64,000 bases of DNA, from NCBI GenBank assembly GCA_035353995.1, contig DAOQAL010000001.1, forward strand, positions 308,104 through 372,103, given 5' to 3'. The DNA comes from Minisyncoccota bacterium. Its GTDB lineage: Bacteria; Patescibacteriota; Minisyncoccia; Phycocordibacterales; UBA9973. The position numbers and the translations under genes were made by a program. The notes below the pieces were generated by a model. It ran no database searches. It was not told where the DNA came from and worked only from the letters and a program-made list of their open reading frames with translations. Shown one piece after another: positions 4,095 through 64,000 of the stretch. Position 1 is the first letter of the stretch, and each line of letters begins with the position of its first letter.

Positions 4095-5093
4095 ATGTTA
4101 AATCCAAAATTAAAGTTAAATACAAAAATTTTTAATGCAGATGTTGAAAATATATCAACTCGCAAAGGTTTTGGAAGTGGTTTAATAAAAGTTGGAGAAA
4201 TAAATAAAAATGTTGTTGGTCTTTGTGCCGATCTAACAGAAAGTACACAGATGAATCTTTTTGCAGAAAGATTTCCAGAAAGATTTATTGAGGTTGGCGT
4301 AGCAGAACAAAACTTGGTAACAGTTGCAAGTGGTATGTCTGCAATGGGTAAAATTCCATTTTGTGCTTCATATGCAATGTTTTCTCCTGGTAGAAATTGG
4401 GAACAAATAAGAACTACGATTGCTTATAATGATAGAAAAGTTGTAATTGTAGGTAGCCATGCTGGAGTTTCAGTTGGAGCAGACGGTGGTTCTCATCAAG
4501 CTCTTGAAGATATTGCACTTATGAGAGTAATACCAAATATGGATGTTATTTCTCCATGTGATTTTATTGAAGCAAAAAAAGCAACAATTGCACTTTCTAA
4601 AACAAAAGAGCCTGCATATTTACGTTTATCTAGAGAAAAAACTCCAGTTATTACAACAGAAGAAACACCATTTGAAATAGGCAAGTCAGAAATTTATTGG
4701 ATTCCAGATGTTGGTCTTGCGGATGTGGGCATAATAGCAACAGGTAGTTTATTGTATCAAGCAATAATATCTGCAAAAGAACTAGAGGCTGAAGGTATAA
4801 AAACAAAAGTAATGAATTTATCTTCAATAAAACCAATAGACAAGGATGCAATAATTGCTCTTGCAAAAGAAACAAAAAGAATTGTAACAGTAGAAGAACA
4901 TCAAGTTGCTGGTGGAATGGGTAGCGCCGTATCGGAAATATTATCGCAACATTATCCTGTACCAATAGAATTTATTGGTGTGCAAGATAAATTCGGACAG
5001 TCTGGTACATCAAAAGAATTGATTGAACATTATGGCATGGACAAAGATTCTATAAAACAAATAGTAAGAAAAATTTTGAATAGAAAAAACTAA
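4095..5093 (+). CDS. transketolase, C-terminal subunit (pyrimidine-binding plus C-terminal domain)
   Basis: FIEVGVAEQNLV and GSHAGVSVGADGGSHQALEDIALMR motifs; the gene is adjacent to the N-terminal subunit. Confidence 0.85.
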   Translation: MLNPKLKLNTKIFNADVENISTRKGFGSGLIKVGEINKNVVGLCADLTESTQMNLFAERFPERFIEVGVAEQNLVTVASGMSAMGKIPFCASYAMFSPGRNWEQIRTTIAYNDRKVVIVGSHAGVSVGADGGSHQALEDIALMRVIPNMDVISPCDFIEAKKATIALSKTKEPAYLRLSREKTPVITTEETPFEIGKSEIYWIPDVGLADVGIIATGSLLYQAIISAKELEAEGIKTKVMNLSSIKPIDKDAIIALAKETKRIVTVEEHQVAGGMGSAVSEILSQHYPVPIEFIGVQDKFGQSGTSKELIEHYGMDKDSIKQIVRKILNRKN

Positions 5094-6082
5094 TTTATTT
5101 TTGTAGCTTTAAAATCTACTGGAGCATTTTTTAAATATTCTTCCAATTTCTCGCGAGAAAGCAAACCATCTTGAGATCCGATTTTTTGAATTACGGACAT
5201 TGAATTAACCATTCCCCAAGATAGTGATTCAAGTGGAGTTTTTCCTAAAATAAGAGCAACCATAAAAGCTGAAGACAATGCATCTCCTGCTCCTGTGCAC
5301 TCAAATGGGGGATTAGAAGTTTTGTATATATTGTAATGCCATAATTCATTATTAAAATATAAATAAGCACCATTGTGTGCATCAGTTAGTACTACAATTT
5401 TTGGTCCAAGTGCATTTATTCCTTGTGCTAATTTTAAAATATCTTTTTCTTCAATTCCTAAAATTCTTTCTGCTTCCTCAAGATTTGAAAAGAACACTTC
5501 TGTATTTGTATAAACATCTTTTAATTTTTCAGTTCCTAATTTAATTTGAAAAGTTCCAGGCTGAAATGCTAATTTAGTATTTGGATGTTTCTTAATATAT
5601 TCTATTATTTCCAATTGATAAGGAAGGGAATTGTCTGCTAATGAACTTAAATAAATCCAAGAAACATTTTTTATTTTTGGGAACTTATAATTAAATTCTG
5701 TATGTTTTACTAAAATAGTACGATCAATATCATACCAGAGAACATAATGATAATTTGTAAGTTTATTTTTTTCTTTAGTAATGTATTTTGTTTTTACTCC
5801 TTCTTTCTTTAAACATAAAAGACAATCTTTTCCATAATTATCATCACCTATATTTGCAACAAGAGCAGTATTTATTCCAAGACGTGAAGTAGAAATTGCT
5901 ACATTAGAACTATTTCCAGCAGCATTTATTATATGTAAAGATTCATAAGGAATCTTACCGCCAAAGTTCATACAAAGCTCGCATCCTTCTTTATCAATGT
6001 TGCAGTGTATGTGAGCATCTTGTAATTTAATAAAAGCGTCTACCACGATATCCCCAACTGTCAATAAATCCACTTTTTTCAT
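5090..6082 (-). CDS. PfkB-family carbohydrate kinase (ribokinase-like)
   Basis: C-terminal DTGAGDALSSAF anion-hole motif and N-terminal GG dipeptide region. The listed ORF runs to 6121, but that overlaps the next gene; an internal MKKVDLLTVGD start at 6082 seems likelier. Confidence 0.7.
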   Translation of the reverse strand: MKKVDLLTVGDIVVDAFIKLQDAHIHCNIDKEGCELCMNFGGKIPYESLHIINAAGNSSNVAISTSRLGINTALVANIGDDNYGKDCLLCLKKEGVKTKYITKEKNKLTNYHYVLWYDIDRTILVKHTEFNYKFPKIKNVSWIYLSSLADNSLPYQLEIIEYIKKHPNTKLAFQPGTFQIKLGTEKLKDVYTNTEVFFSNLEEAERILGIEEKDILKLAQGINALGPKIVVLTDAHNGAYLYFNNELWHYNIYKTSNPPFECTGAGDALSSAFMVALILGKTPLESLSWGMVNSMSVIQKIGSQDGLLSREKLEEYLKNAPVDFKATKIN

Positions 6083-6096
6083 GTTATTATTATAAC

Positions 6097-7533
6097 ATGA
6101 AAAGATTACTTTTGTTTTCATTAGTATCTCTTTTATTACTATCGTTTCGTATAGCGTTTGCGGATGTAATTATAAATGAAGTAAAATATTCTCCTACAAC
6201 AAAGCAGTGGGTTGAAATTTATAATAATACCGATTCTGATATCGATATCACTACTTATAAAATATTGGATTCGAGTGCATCAACCAATGGTCATTCTGTT
6301 GTTGCTATTGAGGGTGGTACAAACATAATTTCAGCGAATAGTTTTGGAATAATTGCCAAAGTTCCTGATGATTTTACTGGAGTTTCATTTCCTGTATTCA
6401 AGAGTTCTTTGGGGATAAAGGTATCAGGAGATGTTGTTACTCTAAAAAGTAATTCTGGAGAAACTGATTCTGTAACAATAGATGGAACTGCTATTGAAGG
6501 AAATTCTTCGCAATTAGTAAATAATTCTTGGGTATCTGCTGTACCTACTCCAGGTGGGGAAAATTCTGATAGCTCTTCTAGTTCATCTTCAAGCTCGTCA
6601 TCTGAATCTAATTCTTCCTCTAGTTCTAGTAGTAATTCTTCTGGTGGTAGTTCATCTAGTAGATCTTCTTCAAGCACAGAAGAAAAAATAATAAAAAATC
6701 CTACAATTCAATTAAAAATTTTATCAAATACATTGGCTTTTGTAGAACAGCCGTTAGCTTTGAAAGCAAACCTTATTGGATATTCAAATGAAAAATTAGT
6801 TTTAGGAAAACTATTTTGGAACTTTGGTGATGGTAGCTCGTTTGAACAAGTAAACGGTTTTGATAAATTTTCTCATACTTATTTTTATCCAGGTGAATAT
6901 GCTTTAACTGCGGAATATTTTTTAAATAAAAATCATACTGACGAACCTGATGTAGTAAATAAAACAATAATAAAAGTTATACCAATGACGGTTTCCATTT
7001 CAAAAGTTGGTGACTACAAAGATTTTTTTATAGAGCTTACAAATAATTCAAGTTATGACATAGATGTTTCTGGGTGGTATATTCGCACAAGTAAAAATAT
7101 ATTTTTCCTACCGAGAAATAGTATTATTTTGTCTAAAAGACAAATGACAATATCAAGTAAAATAACTGGTTTTATGCTAGGGGATGAAGCAGATTTAAAA
7201 TTATATATGCCCGATGGTAAATTAGTGTATGACTATAATAGTTTTCTTGTTCCAGTTAGGTCATCATATAAAACAAACAATTCTATTAAAAATTCCGATC
7301 AGGAAATAGATAATACAACAATATCTCTAAGTAGTTTCGAAGAACCAGTCATGGCAGAAAATTTATTAGCAAATTCATTATCTAGTGGAAATGTAGAAAG
7401 TGAGAAAAACAATTCTATATTTTTATGGGCATTTGTTTTATTTTTATTTATTTCAGGATTAATTGTATATTTTATTCGTCACAAAAAAGAAAAATTGAAA
7501 ACTGGAGACGATTTTGCTATACTAGACGAATAA
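6097..7533 (+). CDS. secreted protein with two lamin-tail domains, a Ser-rich linker and a C-terminal TM anchor
   Basis: Signal peptide. Two LTD signatures, INEVKYSPTTKQWVEIYN and FFIELTNNSSYDIDVSGWYIR. A poly-Ser tract, a PKD-like FGDGS motif and a C-terminal hydrophobic helix followed by RHKKEK. Confidence 0.7.
   Translation: MKRLLLFSLVSLLLLSFRIAFADVIINEVKYSPTTKQWVEIYNNTDSDIDITTYKILDSSASTNGHSVVAIEGGTNIISANSFGIIAKVPDDFTGVSFPVFKSSLGIKVSGDVVTLKSNSGETDSVTIDGTAIEGNSSQLVNNSWVSAVPTPGGENSDSSSSSSSSSSSESNSSSSSSSNSSGGSSSSRSSSSTEEKIIKNPTIQLKILSNTLAFVEQPLALKANLIGYSNEKLVLGKLFWNFGDGSSFEQVNGFDKFSHTYFYPGEYALTAEYFLNKNHTDEPDVVNKTIIKVIPMTVSISKVGDYKDFFIELTNNSSYDIDVSGWYIRTSKNIFFLPRNSIILSKRQMTISSKITGFMLGDEADLKLYMPDGKLVYDYNSFLVPVRSSYKTNNSIKNSDQEIDNTTISLSSFEEPVMAENLLANSLSSGNVESEKNNSIFLWAFVLFLFISGLIVYFIRHKKEKLKTGDDFAILDE
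6565..6678 (+). repeat. low-complexity poly-Ser/Asn coding tract (AGC/TCT/AGT runs)
   Basis: It encodes SSSSSSSSSSESNSSSSSSSNSSGGSSSSRSSSS. Confidence 0.8.
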
Positions 7534-59937: not shown

Positions 59938-59975
59938 GTTAGAATAAAAAAGCGGGACATCAAAGTCCCGCTTTA
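59938..59975 (-). terminator. intrinsic terminator of the NADAR gene; the hairpin overlaps its stop codon
   Basis: aaaGCGGGACatcaaaGTCCCGCttt with flanking A/T runs. On the minus strand it is followed by tttttattct. Confidence 0.7.
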
Positions 59976-60419
59976 TTTTTTTAACTCTTCTCTCATATCC
60001 ATCCACATTTTCCCAATATGGTTTAATCCTTTTCCATCTTCACCATTATCCCAGAATCCGTCACCAGGAGGATAAGTAACAATGTGTTTAACAATTTTTA
60101 AATCTCCTGAATCAATTAAGGCATTACGAACCTCCTCGTGTTGTTCCATCTTTAATCTCATTAACTTTTTCATGATTTCCAACTTATATTCATCATCTTT
60201 AAATTCAGGTATTTGAAGGTGTTTATATTTACATGATACTTGCCATGCTTTTACTGGACTGCGAGCAGAGATTATTTCATCTATGATTTTTTGATCTGTA
60301 TATCTTTGACATTGATATGCATGTTCTACTGTTGGATAAACAACTCCATCCAGCTTAATTGCATGAGATGTATATGGTGAGAAATATATGTAAAAAATTT
60401 CTAATGGTAATATTTTCAT
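59973..60419 (-). CDS. NADAR (YbiA/DUF1768) domain protein
   Basis: Matches the NADAR pattern: FYIYFSPYTSHAIKLDGVVYPTVEHAYQCQRY...SPVKAW...DGFWDNGEDGKGLNHIGKMWMDMR. Confidence 0.7.
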   Translation of the reverse strand: MKILPLEIFYIYFSPYTSHAIKLDGVVYPTVEHAYQCQRYTDQKIIDEIISARSPVKAWQVSCKYKHLQIPEFKDDEYKLEIMKKLMRLKMEQHEEVRNALIDSGDLKIVKHIVTYPPGDGFWDNGEDGKGLNHIGKMWMDMREELKK

Positions 60420-60428
60420 ATTTTATGA

Positions 60429-60893
60429 CTATACTAAATTTAACTGTTTATCTAAAGGAGGGAATGAAAAATATACTCTTACGTTGTTGTCTTTTTCGTA
60501 TAGTTCAATCATCTCAAAATTTTCTTTTTGTATAAGTGAAAACTCTTGTTCTTTTAAACACTTTTCTTTAAAAGAAGGATAATCAGAAACAGTAAAATCA
60601 GCATCTCCACGTTCTTGTCGGGTTAAATCTGGTTTCCTGATTTTTAATAATTGTAATTTACCAGCAACAGTATCTAAAGATATTTTAAATAATGGACCGC
60701 TTGGAGTTTCTTGTATTATTGTACCTAACTTATGTGCTTCCTTTAAAAAATTGGTTTGTTCTTCTTCGGATTGGCAAAAAATACAAGCATAATTAACTGG
60801 AATACTTTTTTGGTCAGTATATTTATCTTTTAATTCTTCAGCGTCTTTAACTATTTTCTTTATTAATTCTTCCATACTATTTTGATTTAGCAA
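60429..60893 (-). CDS. hypothetical protein, 154 aa
   Basis: ORF in an operon-like array; no motif recognised. Confidence 0.4.
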   Translation of the reverse strand: MLNQNSMEELIKKIVKDAEELKDKYTDQKSIPVNYACIFCQSEEEQTNFLKEAHKLGTIIQETPSGPLFKISLDTVAGKLQLLKIRKPDLTRQERGDADFTVSDYPSFKEKCLKEQEFSLIQKENFEMIELYEKDNNVRVYFSFPPLDKQLNLV

Positions 60894-60948
60894 TTATTAA
60901 AAGCTTGTGTATACAGAGGCAAGACCTCTGTTAAGCAATAAAGAGGAT

Positions 60949-61365
60949 TTATGCTAACTTCTGAATGATTTCTTTAATATATGGTCCAAATTTATTATTA
61001 TCAAGTTTTAGCCATTCTGCTGGAGTTAGCCATTGATACTCTCTTTCCGAGTCTTGTTTAAATTCACTAATATCATCAATAAATACTTTATAATCAGCAA
61101 AAATCATATTAGTAGTTTCTGAATTTGAAATAGGGATATTTAATCCATTAGTTAATCCTATGAATTCAAAATTTTTAATTTCTAAATTGGTTTTTTCTTT
61201 AACTGAATTAATTAATGTCTCCTCTATTGTTTTTCCCCATTCAACTTTTGCATTTATACAAGTATATTTTTCCCCTTGACTAGGAGTAGTTCTTAAAAAT
61301 AACTTACCATCTGAATTAATAATAAAGGAACCAACTACAAATTTTGGATACTTTTTATCTTCCAT
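60949..61365 (-). CDS. Nudix-fold protein with a degenerate Nudix box
   Basis: KVEWGKTIEETLINSVKEKTNLEI aligns to GGKIEMGETPEQAVVRELQEEVGI, but the REUxEE residues are largely substituted; 138 aa. Confidence 0.4.
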   Translation of the reverse strand: MEDKKYPKFVVGSFIINSDGKLFLRTTPSQGEKYTCINAKVEWGKTIEETLINSVKEKTNLEIKNFEFIGLTNGLNIPISNSETTNMIFADYKVFIDDISEFKQDSEREYQWLTPAEWLKLDNNKFGPYIKEIIQKLA

Positions 61366-61730
61366 TTTGATATTATATCAGATTCCAAAATACAAAAATA
61401 TCCCATTGGATTGTAAAATGATATTTTATAATTGAACACTTTGTGTACAAGAATGATGTGGTCACAAGTTACTAAATATTTTGCTCCAAACATTCGCAAA
61501 ATATGTAAGTACTCGCGACCCCAGCTCGGCAATTTTTTTACTAAAAAATTAGGCCTACGCTTTCACAAAACACTCGCAAATGAAGCAGTTCATTTGCTTT
61601 GTGTGTTTTGTGACCTTTGAAGGACTAGACTTAAAACTCTATATAGATTTCTTCACTGAGTTAGATAGAATCATATCACATTTTGAAATTCCTTTTAATT
61701 TTGAACATTCTCCTGAAAAATCTTCAGCTT

Positions 61731-61758
61731 TAGTAATCCCTTAATGGTATTTAAATCT
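61731..61758. repeat. 28-nt direct repeat, copy A (tagtaatcccttaatggtatttaaatct), just 3' of the stop of gene 61764-62162
   Basis: 27 of 28 nt identical to copy B at 62198-62225. Confidence 0.85.
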
Positions 61759-61763
61759 AGTGG

Positions 61764-62162
61764 TTATATTGATGAATCAAAAAATGATGAACCACTGTTT
61801 ATAAATTGATTTACCTCTCCTTTTGACCATACATGATTCTTACAATTAGGACAAGTAGCAAATCCATCACTCCTTACATGTAAGCGTATAATACGATCAT
61901 CACTTTCTACACATTTACTACAGAAGGGTCCATCGGTTGTATTGTCTTCTTTCTTTAACCAATAACAATTATTCTTAAAATCAGATTTTTCTTTAAAAGA
62001 ACTAACATCTTTCAATTTTTTGTTTTCTTCTTCTAATTCTGATATTTTCCTTTGATAACCTAAAATTGTTTCTTGGGCATCAAGAATCATTTGATATTGT
62101 TCAATTTTATCAGCTTCTCTTAAAACTTTAGCTGCTGAAGTTAAACCATTTATTATATCCAT
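61764..62162 (-). CDS. coiled-coil / zinc-ribbon protein (CxxC...CxxC), hypothetical
   Basis: N-terminal coiled coil, then C-terminal CSKCVESDDRIIRLHVRSDGFATCPNCKNHV; 132 aa. Confidence 0.45.
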   Translation of the reverse strand: MDIINGLTSAAKVLREADKIEQYQMILDAQETILGYQRKISELEEENKKLKDVSSFKEKSDFKNNCYWLKKEDNTTDGPFCSKCVESDDRIIRLHVRSDGFATCPNCKNHVWSKGEVNQFINSGSSFFDSSI

Positions 62163-62197
62163 AATCTCTATTATATCATATAAAAATCTCTATTTTT

Positions 62198-62225
62198 AGT
62201 AATTCCTTAATGGTATTTAAATCTT
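62198..62225. repeat. 28-nt direct repeat, copy B (tagtaattccttaatggtatttaaatct), overlapping the stop of gene 62224-63105
   Basis: See copy A. Confidence 0.85.
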
Positions 62226-63105
62226 ACTTATTTTTACTATTTGTATATATATTTCTTTGTTTTGCAATTATTGATATTATTCTATCCTCTAATTTTTTAA
62301 CTTGTTCCTTTGTTGTATGGAATGAATTTAAGTTATGAGCTACTTGATTTCTCAGACCCATTAAGTCTCTTATTATTTGTTTTTCTTCTACTGTTATGAG
62401 TTTTCTCTGTTCTGCTACATTTAATATGACAGACGGTGGAACTCTATTTATATTTAGTCCTATGTGAGGAATAAGATTTGATTTTAAAGAAAGTATTACT
62501 GCTTGGAATAAATTTAAAATTGTTAATCTATAGTCTCCAATACTGTAATTCCTTTTTGCACTACCAATGTAAATTTTTTGGTCATTACTTAAATTTTCTA
62601 TTTCACTCTTTTCTTTCTTCCTAAACAATGAAAATGAAAGAACAACAGATATCAAAGCTGTAATTATTGAAAATGAGCCAGATATTATTTCTGTGGTGGA
62701 TTTAATGCTTTCAGAACCAACCTTACTTACTAAAATAAATATAGGTATTATTTCTGTTAAAATCCATGACATTATTACTAATATTGGGAATATAAATGCA
62801 AGCGTATATACAATATGAGCTAAAACTTCAATGTATTTTGACCACCCAAACCATTTATTTGTAAAAATCTCAGAATTATATCTAATATTATTTAACCCAT
62901 ATAAGTATGAAGAAAAAAGTAATAATCCTAAAAAAATAAGTGCTAGAGAAAAAATAGTTAAATCATATCCAAATATATTAAGTTTTATAGAATCTAATTT
63001 ATCTTTAAATGGAAAAATTGCTAATATAACAGCTGCTAACCCAATCATGAACGAAGCCTTGTCTGATATGATTGATTCTTTTTTTTGTGAATTTATATCA
63101 ATCAT
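62224..63105 (-). CDS. membrane-anchored protein with a C-terminal HEPN-like (Abi2/DUF4145-type RNxxAH) domain
   Basis: Four N-terminal TM helices, then a soluble tail containing LRNQVAHN (the Rx4H HEPN motif). Confidence 0.5.
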   Translation of the reverse strand: MIDINSQKKESIISDKASFMIGLAAVILAIFPFKDKLDSIKLNIFGYDLTIFSLALIFLGLLLFSSYLYGLNNIRYNSEIFTNKWFGWSKYIEVLAHIVYTLAFIFPILVIMSWILTEIIPIFILVSKVGSESIKSTTEIISGSFSIITALISVVLSFSLFRKKEKSEIENLSNDQKIYIGSAKRNYSIGDYRLTILNLFQAVILSLKSNLIPHIGLNINRVPPSVILNVAEQRKLITVEEKQIIRDLMGLRNQVAHNLNSFHTTKEQVKKLEDRIISIIAKQRNIYTNSKNK

Positions 63106-63931
63106 GTTTAATGATTTTTATTTTATCATTATTAAAGATAATTTCTTTTAAATCAGAGAAAAATGACATCAAATTATATGAAGTTATTGGAGCATCACCT
63201 GGATGAGCTGATTGATTTCTCATATCAAAACAACTACGTAATCTAGTATGTTGATTTATATCAATAAGTCCCATTCCTTCTAAAACCCATAATATTTGAT
63301 TATCAAAGATTTCTCTTAATTCACTTATTGATGTCACTGGTTGTATTCCTGAAAATCTTTTAAATCTACCTGATTGTGCACTCGCCATTTGAGCTGCCAC
63401 AACATTAAATTGAGTAAATCCTATTTCTTCAATTTTATTATGGATACAATCTATGCTGGCACACCATCCAAGAATTATAGCAGCTCTCATAAAATCATGT
63501 TTGGCACAATCTATAGCTTCTTTAAGATATTTACCTTCTTCTGATTCCCCAAAATCTGATAAAAGAGAATCTAAAATTTCATGATTTATATCTTTACTAT
63601 TTGATTTAGTATGAGTTTTTAATATAATTTCATTATTAAATGATTTTAATATATCACTTGTATACTTTATATAAGTTTTTTTTAGATTTCCAGAAGAAAG
63701 ACTTAGCTGAACAAGACCTTCAAATAATTTATCATATTTTTCTATAATTTCAGGTTGGCAAAAATAATTAAGATCTTGTTTTATATTATTAATCCACTCA
63801 TTATTAAGTCTCTGTGTTTCTTCTAATAAACTTCTCTTTCTGACCTGAGAATTTTTTTCTTTTTGTAAAACAGATTTAAATTTTTTTAAATCTGTTAAAA
63901 AAGTGCTTAATTTATCTTTAAAATCACTCAT
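63098..63931 (-). CDS. cytoplasmic HEPN-like (Abi2/DUF4145-type) protein, candidate abortive-infection factor
   Basis: C-terminal RLRSCFDMRNQSAHPG (the RNxxAH / Rx4H motif). It overlaps the downstream membrane HEPN gene by 8 nt. Confidence 0.45.
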   Translation of the reverse strand: MSDFKDKLSTFLTDLKKFKSVLQKEKNSQVRKRSLLEETQRLNNEWINNIKQDLNYFCQPEIIEKYDKLFEGLVQLSLSSGNLKKTYIKYTSDILKSFNNEIILKTHTKSNSKDINHEILDSLLSDFGESEEGKYLKEAIDCAKHDFMRAAIILGWCASIDCIHNKIEEIGFTQFNVVAAQMASAQSGRFKRFSGIQPVTSISELREIFDNQILWVLEGMGLIDINQHTRLRSCFDMRNQSAHPGDAPITSYNLMSFFSDLKEIIFNNDKIKIIKHD

Positions 63932-63942
63932 ACAATATAAAT

Positions 63943-64000
63943 TTATTGTGATAGGTCTTTTGCTATTTTAACCATCTCTTTTTTACCATCAGCACTCAAT
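63943..64000 (-). CDS. 3' end of an unidentified CDS running off the right edge (...LSADGKKEMVKIAKDLSQ*)
   Basis: Open frame to the window edge with a TAA stop at 63943-63945. Confidence 0.3.
   Translation of the reverse strand, partial: LSADGKKEMVKIAKDLSQ

What the first reader, a model, noticed from the sequence alone, without database searches (positions are those of the whole stretch)
61731..63931. Candidate abortive-infection/defence module: two overlapping genes with the RNQxAH HEPN motif, one membrane-anchored, with a 28-nt repeat at the gene 3' ends
Genes 63098-63931 and 62224-63105 overlap by 8 nt. Each contains an RNQxAH motif in a C-terminal alpha-helical region (MRNQSAHPG and LRNQVAHNL). 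This is the Rx4-6H signature of HEPN RNases, in the Abi2/AbiD/DUF4145 flavour (RNxxAH). The second protein adds four N-terminal TM helices, an architecture seen in membrane-tethered abortive-infection effectors. A 28-nt sequence (tagtaatYccttaatggtatttaaatct) recurs with 27 of 28 identity just 3' of this gene and of the neighbouring zinc-ribbon/coiled-coil gene 61764-62162. That is far beyond chance in 64 kb, so these genes may be serially acquired cassettes or share a 3' regulatory element. A ~400-bp gene-free gap (61366-61763) lies upstream of the zinc-ribbon gene.
Basis: partly seen in the sequence, partly recalled or inferred. Interest (0 to 1): 0.6.

Follow-up and report, generated by a model that had tools for sequence, protein, structure and literature searches.

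The report
HEPN gene cargo of a CPR island
Two neighbouring genes in a tiny-genome (Paceibacteria) bacterium do carry the HEPN RNase signature, but the first really pairs with a DNA-binding-type gene just outside the window, an uncharacterised, toxin-antitoxin-like two-gene module found in more than fifteen phyla, and the 28-base repeat is the inner tip of a conserved ~150-base element that probably marks the end of a mobile island.

Summary
The ORFs, the 8-nt overlap, both R-x4-H motifs, four hydrophobic segments and the 28-nt repeat are all present; the repeat is 27/28 identical and extends to 43 nt.

- **Gene 63098-63931** belongs to Pfam PF27235 "AF_1680" (650+ homologues). Its C-terminal half has HEPN topology with invariant R238 and H243.
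- **Its conserved partner is not the membrane gene.** It is a ~200-aa predicted winged-helix gene immediately upstream. That gene is present in every full-length locus with upstream sequence (53 loci, gap -4 to +11 nt in 51). Only its last 18 codons lie in the window.
- **Gene 62224-63105** is a 4-TM + HEPN protein of a small family. That family stands alone elsewhere and adjoins AF_1680 only in this lineage.
- **The 28-mer** is the inner tip of a ~150-nt conserved element, "E" (61610-61758). In other contigs E follows unrelated, partly defence-type genes.
- **The zinc-ribbon gene** plus one 43-nt copy is an indel that close relatives lack.
- **E** shows no terminator, RNA-structure or coding signal.
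- **Setting:** the region looks like the cargo end of an island beside tRNA-Glu and a large serine recombinase.

Function is inferred as a HEPN toxin/defence module. Interest is moderate.

The parts
63943..64000 (-). Last 18 codons plus stop of the ~203-aa partner gene (P0124), which continues beyond the window end. It has an N-terminal helical hairpin, a disordered linker and a C-terminal winged-helix domain.
63098..63931 (-). AF_1680-family (Pfam PF27235) protein, 277 aa. It has an N-terminal four-helix domain (residues 1-124) and a C-terminal HEPN-like domain.
   Evidence: There are 650+ homologues, about 45-50% identical across phyla, all annotated PF27235. The AF2 model has pLDDT 92.8 and is all-alpha.
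63134..63541 (-). HEPN-like domain of the AF_1680 protein (residues 131-266). The R238 codon is 63218-63220 and the H243 codon is 63203-63205.
62224..63105 (-). Membrane-anchored HEPN protein, 293 aa. It has four hydrophobic segments (residues ~15-158; window 62632-63063) and a C-terminal HEPN domain (~175-285; 62251-62583). The R252 codon is 62350-62352 and the H257 codon is 62335-62337.
   Evidence: Hydropathy is. The family has 27 representatives at 50% identity, with the same architecture and invariant R252, N253 and H257. HEPN-clan Pfam hits occur in many members. P0175 scores 35.6 bits against PF05168 (cut-off 22) and P0162 scores 28.5 against RiboL-PSP-HEPN (cut-off 28.4). The window protein itself is sub-threshold, at 21.3 bits against a cut-off of 26.8.
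62182..62224 (.). Partial copy of element E (its inner 43 nt, including the 28-mer at 62197-62224). It abuts the TM-HEPN stop codon.
   Evidence: nhmmer E 7e-6, model positions 125-167. It is no more structured than shuffles (z -0.45).
61764..62162 (-). Coiled-coil plus CxxC...CxxC zinc-ribbon protein, 132 aa. It is an inserted single-gene segment.
   Evidence: It matches phrog_1244 at E 1.1e-11. It is absent from the same site in L060 and L061, where the TM-HEPN gene is followed directly by a single copy of E.
61610..61758 (.). Element E, a ~150-nt conserved non-coding block. Its inner tip is the 28-mer (61731-61758). Its outer end is GTGACC (61610-61615), where conservation stops sharply.
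   Evidence: Eight E-bearing contigs were compared; L062 and L064 carry the same sequence. The seven distinct copies aligned have 85% mean column identity and lie behind at least five different upstream genes. There is no covariation, no Rfam hit, no excess folding (z 0.79) and no third-codon-position bias.
61563..61613 (.). Strong hairpin directly outside E. It is the only terminator-like site in 61300-64000 and is possibly the original terminator of the tRNA gene at the island's other end.
   Evidence: It folds at -26.2 kcal/mol with z -3.83, and the terminator scan finds it. The link to the tRNA gene is inference.

Best explanation
The finding covers the cargo end of a mobile island of roughly 7.5 kb in a Candidatus Paceibacterota genome.

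**Island layout.** The other end of the island lies just beyond the window, beside tRNA-Glu and a large serine recombinase. The island carries four things:
1. A widely transferred two-gene operon. The upstream gene encodes a ~200-aa winged-helix protein, of which only the last 18 codons are in the window. The downstream gene encodes the AF_1680/PF27235 protein, an N-terminal helical domain plus a C-terminal HEPN domain with invariant R-x4-H.
2. A lineage-specific, translationally coupled extra gene for a 4-TM + HEPN protein.
3. A small phage-type zinc-ribbon gene. It was inserted between that gene and the island's terminal element, and the insertion duplicated 43 nt. The reported 28-nt repeat is part of that duplication.
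4. The ~150-nt terminal element E.

**Most likely mechanism (inferred, not shown).** The AF_1680 protein is a HEPN RNase toxin or effector. The co-translated winged-helix partner keeps it in check or controls its transcription, as in type II toxin-antitoxin and abortive-infection modules. Loss of control, through infection or element loss, would lead to RNA cleavage and growth arrest. The membrane HEPN protein would be a second, independent RNase held at the membrane.

**Element E.** E is a DNA-level feature of the island end, either an attachment-site arm or a recombination hotspot. It is not a terminator or a regulatory RNA.
For: **Shown**
- The partner gene is adjacent to every full-length AF_1680 gene that has upstream sequence. 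That is 53 non-redundant loci from more than 15 phyla, with a gap of -4 to +11 nt in 51 of them.
- No other neighbour is conserved.
- HEPN topology and invariant R/H hold for AF_1680.
- The TM-HEPN family includes members above Pfam HEPN cut-offs.
- Neighbourhoods are variable and include integrases, DNA methylases, MazF and Abi_2. The Leptospira copy sits by an integrase fragment and a MazE/PIN pair.
- tRNA-Glu, a large serine recombinase (phrog_95, E 2e-96) and a resolvase flank the island. The cargo part has lower G+C.
- E sits behind different genes in other contigs. These include the PADLOC candidate system PDC-M34 (DUF5343 + Swt1-like HEPN) and an OLD/AriA-like ATPase.
- L060 and L061 have a single E copy and no zinc-ribbon gene.

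**Inferred**
- RNase activity, toxin/antitoxin roles, defence function and the att-site role of E.
Against: - No curated HEPN, defence or TA profile in the local Pfam, NCBIfam or PADLOC libraries hits the AF_1680 protein or its partner.
- The AF_1680 family is unusually well conserved for a toxin, at about 45-50% identity across phyla.
- Many neighbours are housekeeping genes.
- Relatives of the TM-HEPN gene lie among housekeeping genes such as alaS.
- The island ends share only 7 nt (GGTCACA). A generic alignment of tRNA-Glu to E is not significant.
- No empty-site genome was examined.
Confidence: 0.55

Rival explanations
1. The two overlapping HEPN genes (AF_1680 protein plus TM-HEPN) form one dedicated two-component abortive-infection system, with the membrane protein as tethered effector.
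For: The genes overlap by 8 nt (ATGATTGA), which implies translational coupling. The same arrangement occurs in the related contig L061.
Against: None of the 53 AF_1680 loci found in other genomes has a TM-HEPN gene. The close relative L060 has TM-HEPN with no AF_1680 gene in the 221 nt upstream. More distant relatives stand alone next to alaS or other housekeeping genes. In L061 the two genes differ in divergence from the window, about 95% against 80-86% nt identity, which suggests separate histories.
Confidence: 0.15
2. The HEPN domains are not conflict toxins. These would be housekeeping RNA-processing or nucleotide-binding proteins, especially the membrane protein, that happen to lie on a variable stretch of genome.
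For: TM-HEPN relatives sit among core genes (alaS, His_Phos_1, ribosomal proteins) in other CPR genomes. The best Pfam matches of the family include RiboL-PSP-HEPN and Swt1-like HEPN, which are RNA-processing-associated families. The AF_1680 family is strongly conserved. Many neighbours are housekeeping genes.
Against: The AF_1680 pair has a patchy distribution across more than 15 phyla at about 45% identity, in unrelated contexts, which indicates horizontal transfer. It is often close to integrases, methylases and TA genes. Here it lies on a recombinase-bearing island. Other genomes have defence candidates at the same E-adjacent position.
Confidence: 0.2
3. The 28-nt repeat, or element E as a whole, is either a shared transcription terminator/3' regulatory RNA or a small protein-coding gene on the + strand (61580-61744, ending ...ALVIP*).
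For: Both copies sit within 0-5 nt of stop codons. The + strand frame is open in most copies, with conservative-looking substitutions.
Against: The repeats and E fold no better than shuffles (z 0.32, -0.45 and 0.79). The terminator scan finds only the hairpin outside E. RNAalifold gives -8.4 kcal/mol with no compensatory pairs. Rfam finds nothing. Variable sites are spread evenly over codon positions (11/12/12), and the synonymous fraction is no better than in an antisense frame. L060 and L061 carry in-frame stops. Only one full and one partial copy occur in 74 kb.
Confidence: 0.08

Closest known systems
HEPN-toxin two-gene modules (type II TA / abortive infection: HepT-MntA, RnlA-RnlB, AbiD/AbiF-type Abi_2 proteins)
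   Same: Both have a small co-oriented gene pair with a near-zero intergenic gap. The downstream protein carries a four-helix HEPN domain with R-x4-H at the end of helix 3. Both show a mobile, patchy distribution.
   Different: The partner is a ~200-aa winged-helix protein with an N-terminal helical hairpin and a disordered linker. It is not a nucleotidyltransferase (MntA) or RnlB. The HEPN protein has an extra N-terminal four-helix domain. No HepT, Abi_2 or RnlA profile matches. Toxicity is untested.
PADLOC candidate system PDC-M34 (DUF5343 protein + Swt1-like HEPN protein)
   Same: It has the same gene order and sizes, a ~200-aa partner followed by a ~200-270-aa HEPN protein. In contigs L062 and L064 it occupies exactly the position next to element E that the present genes occupy here.
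   Different: There is no detectable sequence relationship. hhalign of AF_1680 against PDC-M34B gives E 0.52, and partner against PDC-M34A gives E 0.47. The PADLOC models do not hit the window proteins.
Pfam PF27235 'AF_1680' family
   Same: The 277-aa protein and all 120 listed homologues carry this precomputed annotation over their full length.
   Different: The family is only a catalogue entry here. It is absent from the local Pfam copy, and no paper in the searchable library mentions it.
Membrane-associated HEPN proteins and SLATT-type 2-TM effectors of conflict systems
   Same: The 293-aa protein combines transmembrane helices with a HEPN domain. Two family members give weak SLATT_5 matches over TM3-TM4 and the following helix.
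   Different: The SLATT_5 scores are about 17 bits against a cut-off of 29.5, so this is a lead only. There is no SMODS, SLOG, CARF or other sensor gene nearby. Family members mostly stand alone in CPR genomes.
tRNA-adjacent integrative genomic islands / integron-like cassette capture
   Same: A recombinase lies next to a tRNA at one end, a conserved terminal element at the other, and variable defence-type cargo next to that end. One single-gene segment is bounded by 43-nt direct repeats and is absent in relatives.
   Different: The recombinases are serine-type, not IntI. E is not an attC-like hairpin. There is one full and one partial copy, not an array. End identity is only 7 nt and is statistically unproven.

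Membership tests
HEPN superfamily (definition of Anantharaman et al. 2013, PMC3710099) | All-alpha four-helix up-and-down bundle, often with an insert between helices 2 and 3 | tested here: met
HEPN superfamily (definition of Anantharaman et al. 2013, PMC3710099) | [quoted passage not shown] | tested here: met
   In the AF_1680 protein R238 is in the last turn of helix 225-242 and H243 is in the loop. Both are invariant in 80 sequences. In the TM-HEPN protein R252, N253 and H257 are invariant in 29 sequences. Their position in a structure was not tested.
HEPN superfamily (definition of Anantharaman et al. 2013, PMC3710099) | Significant match to a curated HEPN-clan profile | tested here: inconclusive
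   The AF_1680 protein has no HEPN hit in local Pfam. Its link is indirect, through hhalign to the TM-HEPN family, which scores 23.4 against a shuffle maximum of 15.2. The window's TM-HEPN protein is sub-threshold at 21.3 bits against 26.8. Its homologues P0175 (35.6 against 22) and P0162 (28.5 against 28.4) pass.
HEPN superfamily (definition of Anantharaman et al. 2013, PMC3710099) | Metal-independent endoRNase activity dependent on R and H | not testable with these tools
   This needs biochemistry.
   Neither window protein hits Abi_2. DUF4145 appears only as weak hits in 6 of 29 TM-HEPN family members, best E 2e-4. The one member scanned individually that lists it, P0162, scores 17.0 bits against a cut-off of 23.1. 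The N and Q of 'RNQxAH' are not conserved in the AF_1680 family.
Type II toxin-antitoxin-like pair | Two small co-oriented genes, tightly spaced or overlapping, conserved together | tested here: met
   The partner is upstream in all 53 non-redundant loci that have upstream sequence, and the gap is -4 to +11 nt in 51 of them.
Type II toxin-antitoxin-like pair | One component with a DNA-binding fold (autoregulating antitoxin) | tested here: met
Type II toxin-antitoxin-like pair | Toxicity of one product neutralised by the other | not testable with these tools
   This needs expression experiments.
Known anti-phage systems in PADLOC-DB 2.0.0 (including PDC-M34) | Match to a system protein model | tested here: not met
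   There are no hits for the AF_1680 protein or its partner, and only noise for the others. hhalign to PDC-M34A and PDC-M34B is negative.
Integron gene cassette / attC | attC site: imperfect palindrome folding into a hairpin, repeated behind each cassette, with an IntI tyrosine integrase | tested here: not met
   E and the 43-nt repeat do not fold better than shuffles. There is no consensus structure. One full and one partial copy occur in 74 kb. The neighbouring recombinases are serine-type.
tRNA-adjacent integrative island | Integrase gene next to a tRNA gene at one boundary | tested here: met
   tRNA-Glu lies at L002 4715-4787. The large serine recombinase lies at 4749-6296 on the opposite strand and overlaps the tRNA's 3' end.
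tRNA-adjacent integrative island | Direct repeat of the target at both boundaries, and an empty site in relatives | tested here: inconclusive
   Only GGTCACA (7 nt) is shared at the two junctions. The tRNA-to-E alignment is not significant, p 0.1-0.6.

The most novel reading that the evidence does not exclude
The inner tip of element E (the 28-43-nt repeat) may be a recombination site at which single genes are captured next to the end of a serine-recombinase island. That would make it an integron-like gene-capture platform for defence genes in CPR bacteria. In this reading the winged-helix + AF_1680 pair is a new, widespread anti-phage system present in more than 15 phyla.
Probability: 0.12. 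Interest if true: 0.7.

Novelty: new member of a known kind. Interest (0 to 1): 0.42.

Why it matters
The winged-helix + AF_1680 (PF27235) pair is conserved in bacteria from CPR lineages to Leptospira and Burkholderia, with a partner homologue in an archaeal MAG (Hodarchaeota). No function is described for it, and it is absent from the defence and toxin-antitoxin profile libraries tested here. Assigning it a HEPN RNase domain and an obligatory partner turns a catalogue entry into a testable candidate toxin/defence module. Culturable hosts are available for that test. Defence and mobile-element biology in CPR bacteria is poorly known. A recombinase island whose conserved end collects HEPN and other defence-type genes would be a useful handle on it. 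If the proteins turn out to be ordinary RNA-processing factors, the value is limited to annotation.

Tried and rejected
**Profile, structure and literature searches that gave nothing**
- Local Pfam, NCBIfam and PADLOC on the AF_1680 protein and its partner gave nothing meaningful.
- PDB sequence searches with the single sequence and with the profile found nothing.
- Foldseek against PDB found nothing significant.
- The literature search for AF_1680, AF1680 and PF27235 found no relevant paper.
- tblastn of the AF_1680 and zinc-ribbon proteins against the phage collection, and of the AF_1680 protein against the plasmid collection, found no match.

**Tests on element E and the repeat**
- Rfam, at gathering and E-value thresholds, found no RNA family in the gap or in E.
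- E as a structured RNA is rejected.
- E or the 28-mer as a terminator is rejected.
- E as a small gene is not supported, because there is no codon-position signal and two copies carry in-frame stops.
- E's outer end as a recognisable tRNA 3' fragment is not significant.

**Other comparisons**
- A relationship to PDC-M34 is rejected.
- A conserved third gene downstream of AF_1680 genes was looked for and not found.
- The SLATT_5 similarity of the TM region is too weak to use.
Full report
**Source and orientation.** The window comes from a Candidatus Paceibacterota (CPR) metagenome-assembled genome, contig CAZGCM010000001.1 of GCA_964524305.1, 421 kb. All genes of the finding are on the - strand. 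The window ends 69 nt upstream of the first gene. I therefore fetched the same region with 10-kb flanks as locus L002, which is in gene orientation.

**Observation check.**
- The three ORFs are 63098-63931 (277 aa), 62224-63105 (293 aa) and 61764-62162 (132 aa). The 8-nt overlap is as described.
- The peptides MRNQSAHPG and LRNQVAHNL are present.
- Hydropathy shows four hydrophobic segments in the 293-aa protein.
- The 28-mer occurs exactly twice in 64 kb, with none expected by chance. The repeat extends to 43 nt at 88% identity.

**Gene 63098-63931 (AF_1680 family).**
- The local Pfam, NCBIfam and PADLOC libraries give no meaningful hit.
- The large protein database returns more than 650 homologues. 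All listed ones carry the precomputed annotation PF27235 'AF_1680' and are about 45-50% identical across very different phyla.
- No paper in the searchable library mentions this family. No solved structure matches by sequence.
- An alignment of 80 members shows R238 and H243 invariant, while the N and Q between them vary.
- An AlphaFold2 model (pLDDT 92.8) is all-alpha. It has an N-terminal four-helix domain and a C-terminal bundle: helices 131-144 and 148-170, an insert, then 225-242 and 251-266.
- R238 lies at the end of the third core helix and H243 at the start of the next loop. That is where the published definition places the HEPN Rx4-6H motif, and that definition also describes an insert between helices 2 and 3 (PMC3710099).
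- A profile-profile comparison of this C-terminal domain with that of the second protein's family aligns the two R..H motifs in register. It scores 23.4, against 11.0 +/- 2.0 (maximum 15.2) for 100 column-shuffled controls.
- I conclude that a HEPN domain is likely. The evidence is a predicted structure plus the motif, not a curated profile match.

**The real partner.**
- In the CPR locus and in Leptospira interrogans, a ~200-aa gene lies immediately upstream of the AF_1680 gene.
- A scan of one genome per species returned 53 loci from more than 15 phyla.
- tblastn with the CPR partner finds it directly upstream in every locus that has a full-length AF_1680 gene and upstream sequence. The gap is -4 to +11 nt in 51 of 53 non-redundant loci.
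- All-against-all clustering of the ORFs in these loci finds no other conserved neighbour.
- Neither the membrane HEPN gene nor the zinc-ribbon gene occurs in any of them.
- The partner has no Pfam or PADLOC match.
- Only the partner's last 18 codons and stop (63943-64000) are inside the window.
- The flanks of the pair are variable. They include integrases, N6/N4 methylases, LexA-like repressors, MazF, HNH and Abi_2, and also many housekeeping genes.
- Three IMG/VR contigs carry the pair.
- This pattern is that of a self-contained, horizontally mobile two-gene module with the layout of a type II toxin-antitoxin or abortive-infection pair. The mechanism is inference: a HEPN RNase restrained or regulated by a DNA-binding partner.

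**Gene 62224-63105 (membrane HEPN).**
- The word-indexed search finds only two close relatives.
- An exhaustive HMMER search with the C-terminal 134 residues finds 27 representatives. Most are about 280 aa with the match at their C-terminus.
- The alignment shows conserved N-terminal hydrophobic segments and invariant R252, N253 and H257.
- Scanning all 29 aligned members against Pfam gives HEPN-clan families: RiboL-PSP-HEPN in 15, Swt1-like in 11, HEPN in 7, MAE_28990 in 7 and DUF4145 in 6.
- Two members exceed the curated cut-offs (P0175 and P0162). The window protein itself stays below threshold.
- A weak SLATT_5 similarity over TM3-TM4 is a lead only.
- Contexts differ between relatives.
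  - L061 (80% identical) has the same AF_1680 gene upstream with the same 8-nt overlap.
  - L060 (74% identical) has no AF_1680 gene in the 221 nt upstream.
  - More distant relatives stand alone, for example directly after alaS.
- Between L061 and the window, the AF_1680 gene is about 95% identical in DNA and the membrane gene only 80-86%.
- The membrane gene is therefore a separable unit that joined the AF_1680 pair in this lineage only.

**The 28-nt repeat and element E.**
- In L060 and L061 the 28-mer is present once, right after the membrane gene's stop. It is followed by the sequence that in the window follows the second copy. The zinc-ribbon gene plus one repeat copy (466 bp) is therefore an indel bounded by the direct repeats.
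- A metagenome scan with the 24-nt core found five more contigs.
- In all of them the core is the start of a ~150-nt block that is 85% identical on average.
- That block sits 0-8 nt after the stop codon of unrelated genes in most copies (the last long ORF in L066 ends about 200 nt upstream) and ends sharply at GGTCAC.
- An nhmmer model finds one full copy (window 61610-61758) and the 43-nt partial copy (62182-62224) in the 74 kb available, and nothing else.
- E is not a known RNA. It has no consensus structure or covariation and folds no better than shuffles.
- E reads as an open frame on the + strand in most copies. However, variable sites show no third-position bias, and two copies carry in-frame stops.
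- The only terminator-like structure nearby is a strong hairpin just outside E, at 61563-61613 (z -3.8).
- The genes next to E in other contigs include an OLD/AriA-like ATPase with the PADLOC candidate system PDC-M34 (DUF5343 + Swt1-like HEPN), and a NUDIX protein that hits candidate PDC-S07.
- The position upstream of E is therefore a variable, defence-type cargo slot.
- PDC-M34 resembles the present pair in layout but not in sequence.

**Island context.**
- Beyond the window end lie, in order: tRNA-Ser; tRNA-Glu; a 515-aa large serine recombinase whose 3' end overlaps tRNA-Glu on the opposite strand; a small resolvase; three unknown genes; and then the partner.
- The cargo part has lower G+C, about 0.22-0.28, against about 0.30-0.35 in the flanks.
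- tRNA-Glu ends ...GGGTCAC|A and E ends ...AGGTCAC|A. This 7-nt identity at both presumed junctions is suggestive, but a generic alignment test does not support more.
- I therefore treat the model as plausible but unproven. In it, a serine-recombinase island sits at tRNA-Glu with E as its far end.

**Verdict.**
- Its grouping of genes was not. The conserved system is winged-helix partner + AF_1680 HEPN protein, and it is cut by the window edge. The membrane HEPN and zinc-ribbon genes are separate additions.
- The repeat is a footprint of insertion at the inner edge of a conserved island-end element.
- The function, a HEPN toxin/defence module, is inferred from architecture and context.
- The case is a new, uncharacterised member of a known kind and is of moderate interest.

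Noticed in passing
window 61563-61613 and 61457-61523: A strong hairpin (-26.2 kcal/mol, z -3.8) lies directly outside element E. A second 28-nt imperfect inverted repeat lies further into the 'empty' gap. The hairpin may be the displaced terminator of the tRNA-Glu gene at the island's other end.
   Followed up: partly
window 59973-61365 (- strand): A co-oriented cluster lies just downstream of E: NUDIX (60949-61365), a 154-aa unknown (60429-60893) and NADAR (59973-60419). This may be ADP-ribose-related. In contigs L063 and L065 a different NUDIX gene, which hits PADLOC candidate PDC-S07, sits immediately upstream of E instead.
   Followed up: partly
L062:2-2053 (same genes in L064): In another Paceibacteria-like contig the genes next to element E are an OLD/AriA-like ATPase, a DUF5343 protein (PDC-M34A, E 4.7e-72) and a Swt1-like HEPN protein (PDC-M34B, E 9.3e-69).
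   Followed up: yes
L002:4388-6861 (beyond the window end): This stretch holds tRNA-Ser(cga), tRNA-Glu(ttc), a 515-aa large serine recombinase and a 133-aa resolvase-domain protein. The recombinase ORF runs 39 nt into tRNA-Glu on the opposite strand.
   Followed up: partly
L061:1-1900 versus window 62224-63931: The AF_1680 gene is about 95% identical in DNA between the two contigs. The adjoining membrane HEPN gene is only 80-86% identical. This suggests either recombination or faster evolution of the membrane gene.
   Followed up: no
L053, L054, L055, L057 (matches start at 6001): Four loci match only the C-terminal (HEPN) part of the AF_1680 protein and lack the partner gene. A phage family, phrog_27609 (418-position profile), matches the same domain. 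The domain therefore seems to occur in other architectures too.
   Followed up: no
L068-L070 (gene at 5001-5867 in L068): A 35%-identical relative of the membrane HEPN protein lies 4 nt after alaS and before a His_Phos_1 gene, among housekeeping genes in a 347-kb CPR-like contig. This raises the possibility of a non-defence role for that family.
   Followed up: partly
window 62170-62178 (- strand): The sequence TGATATAAT, an extended -10-like motif, lies about 8 nt upstream of the zinc-ribbon gene's ATG and just inside the inserted segment. It hints at an own promoter and a nearly leaderless mRNA. I read this by eye; the promoter scan did not report it.
   Followed up: no
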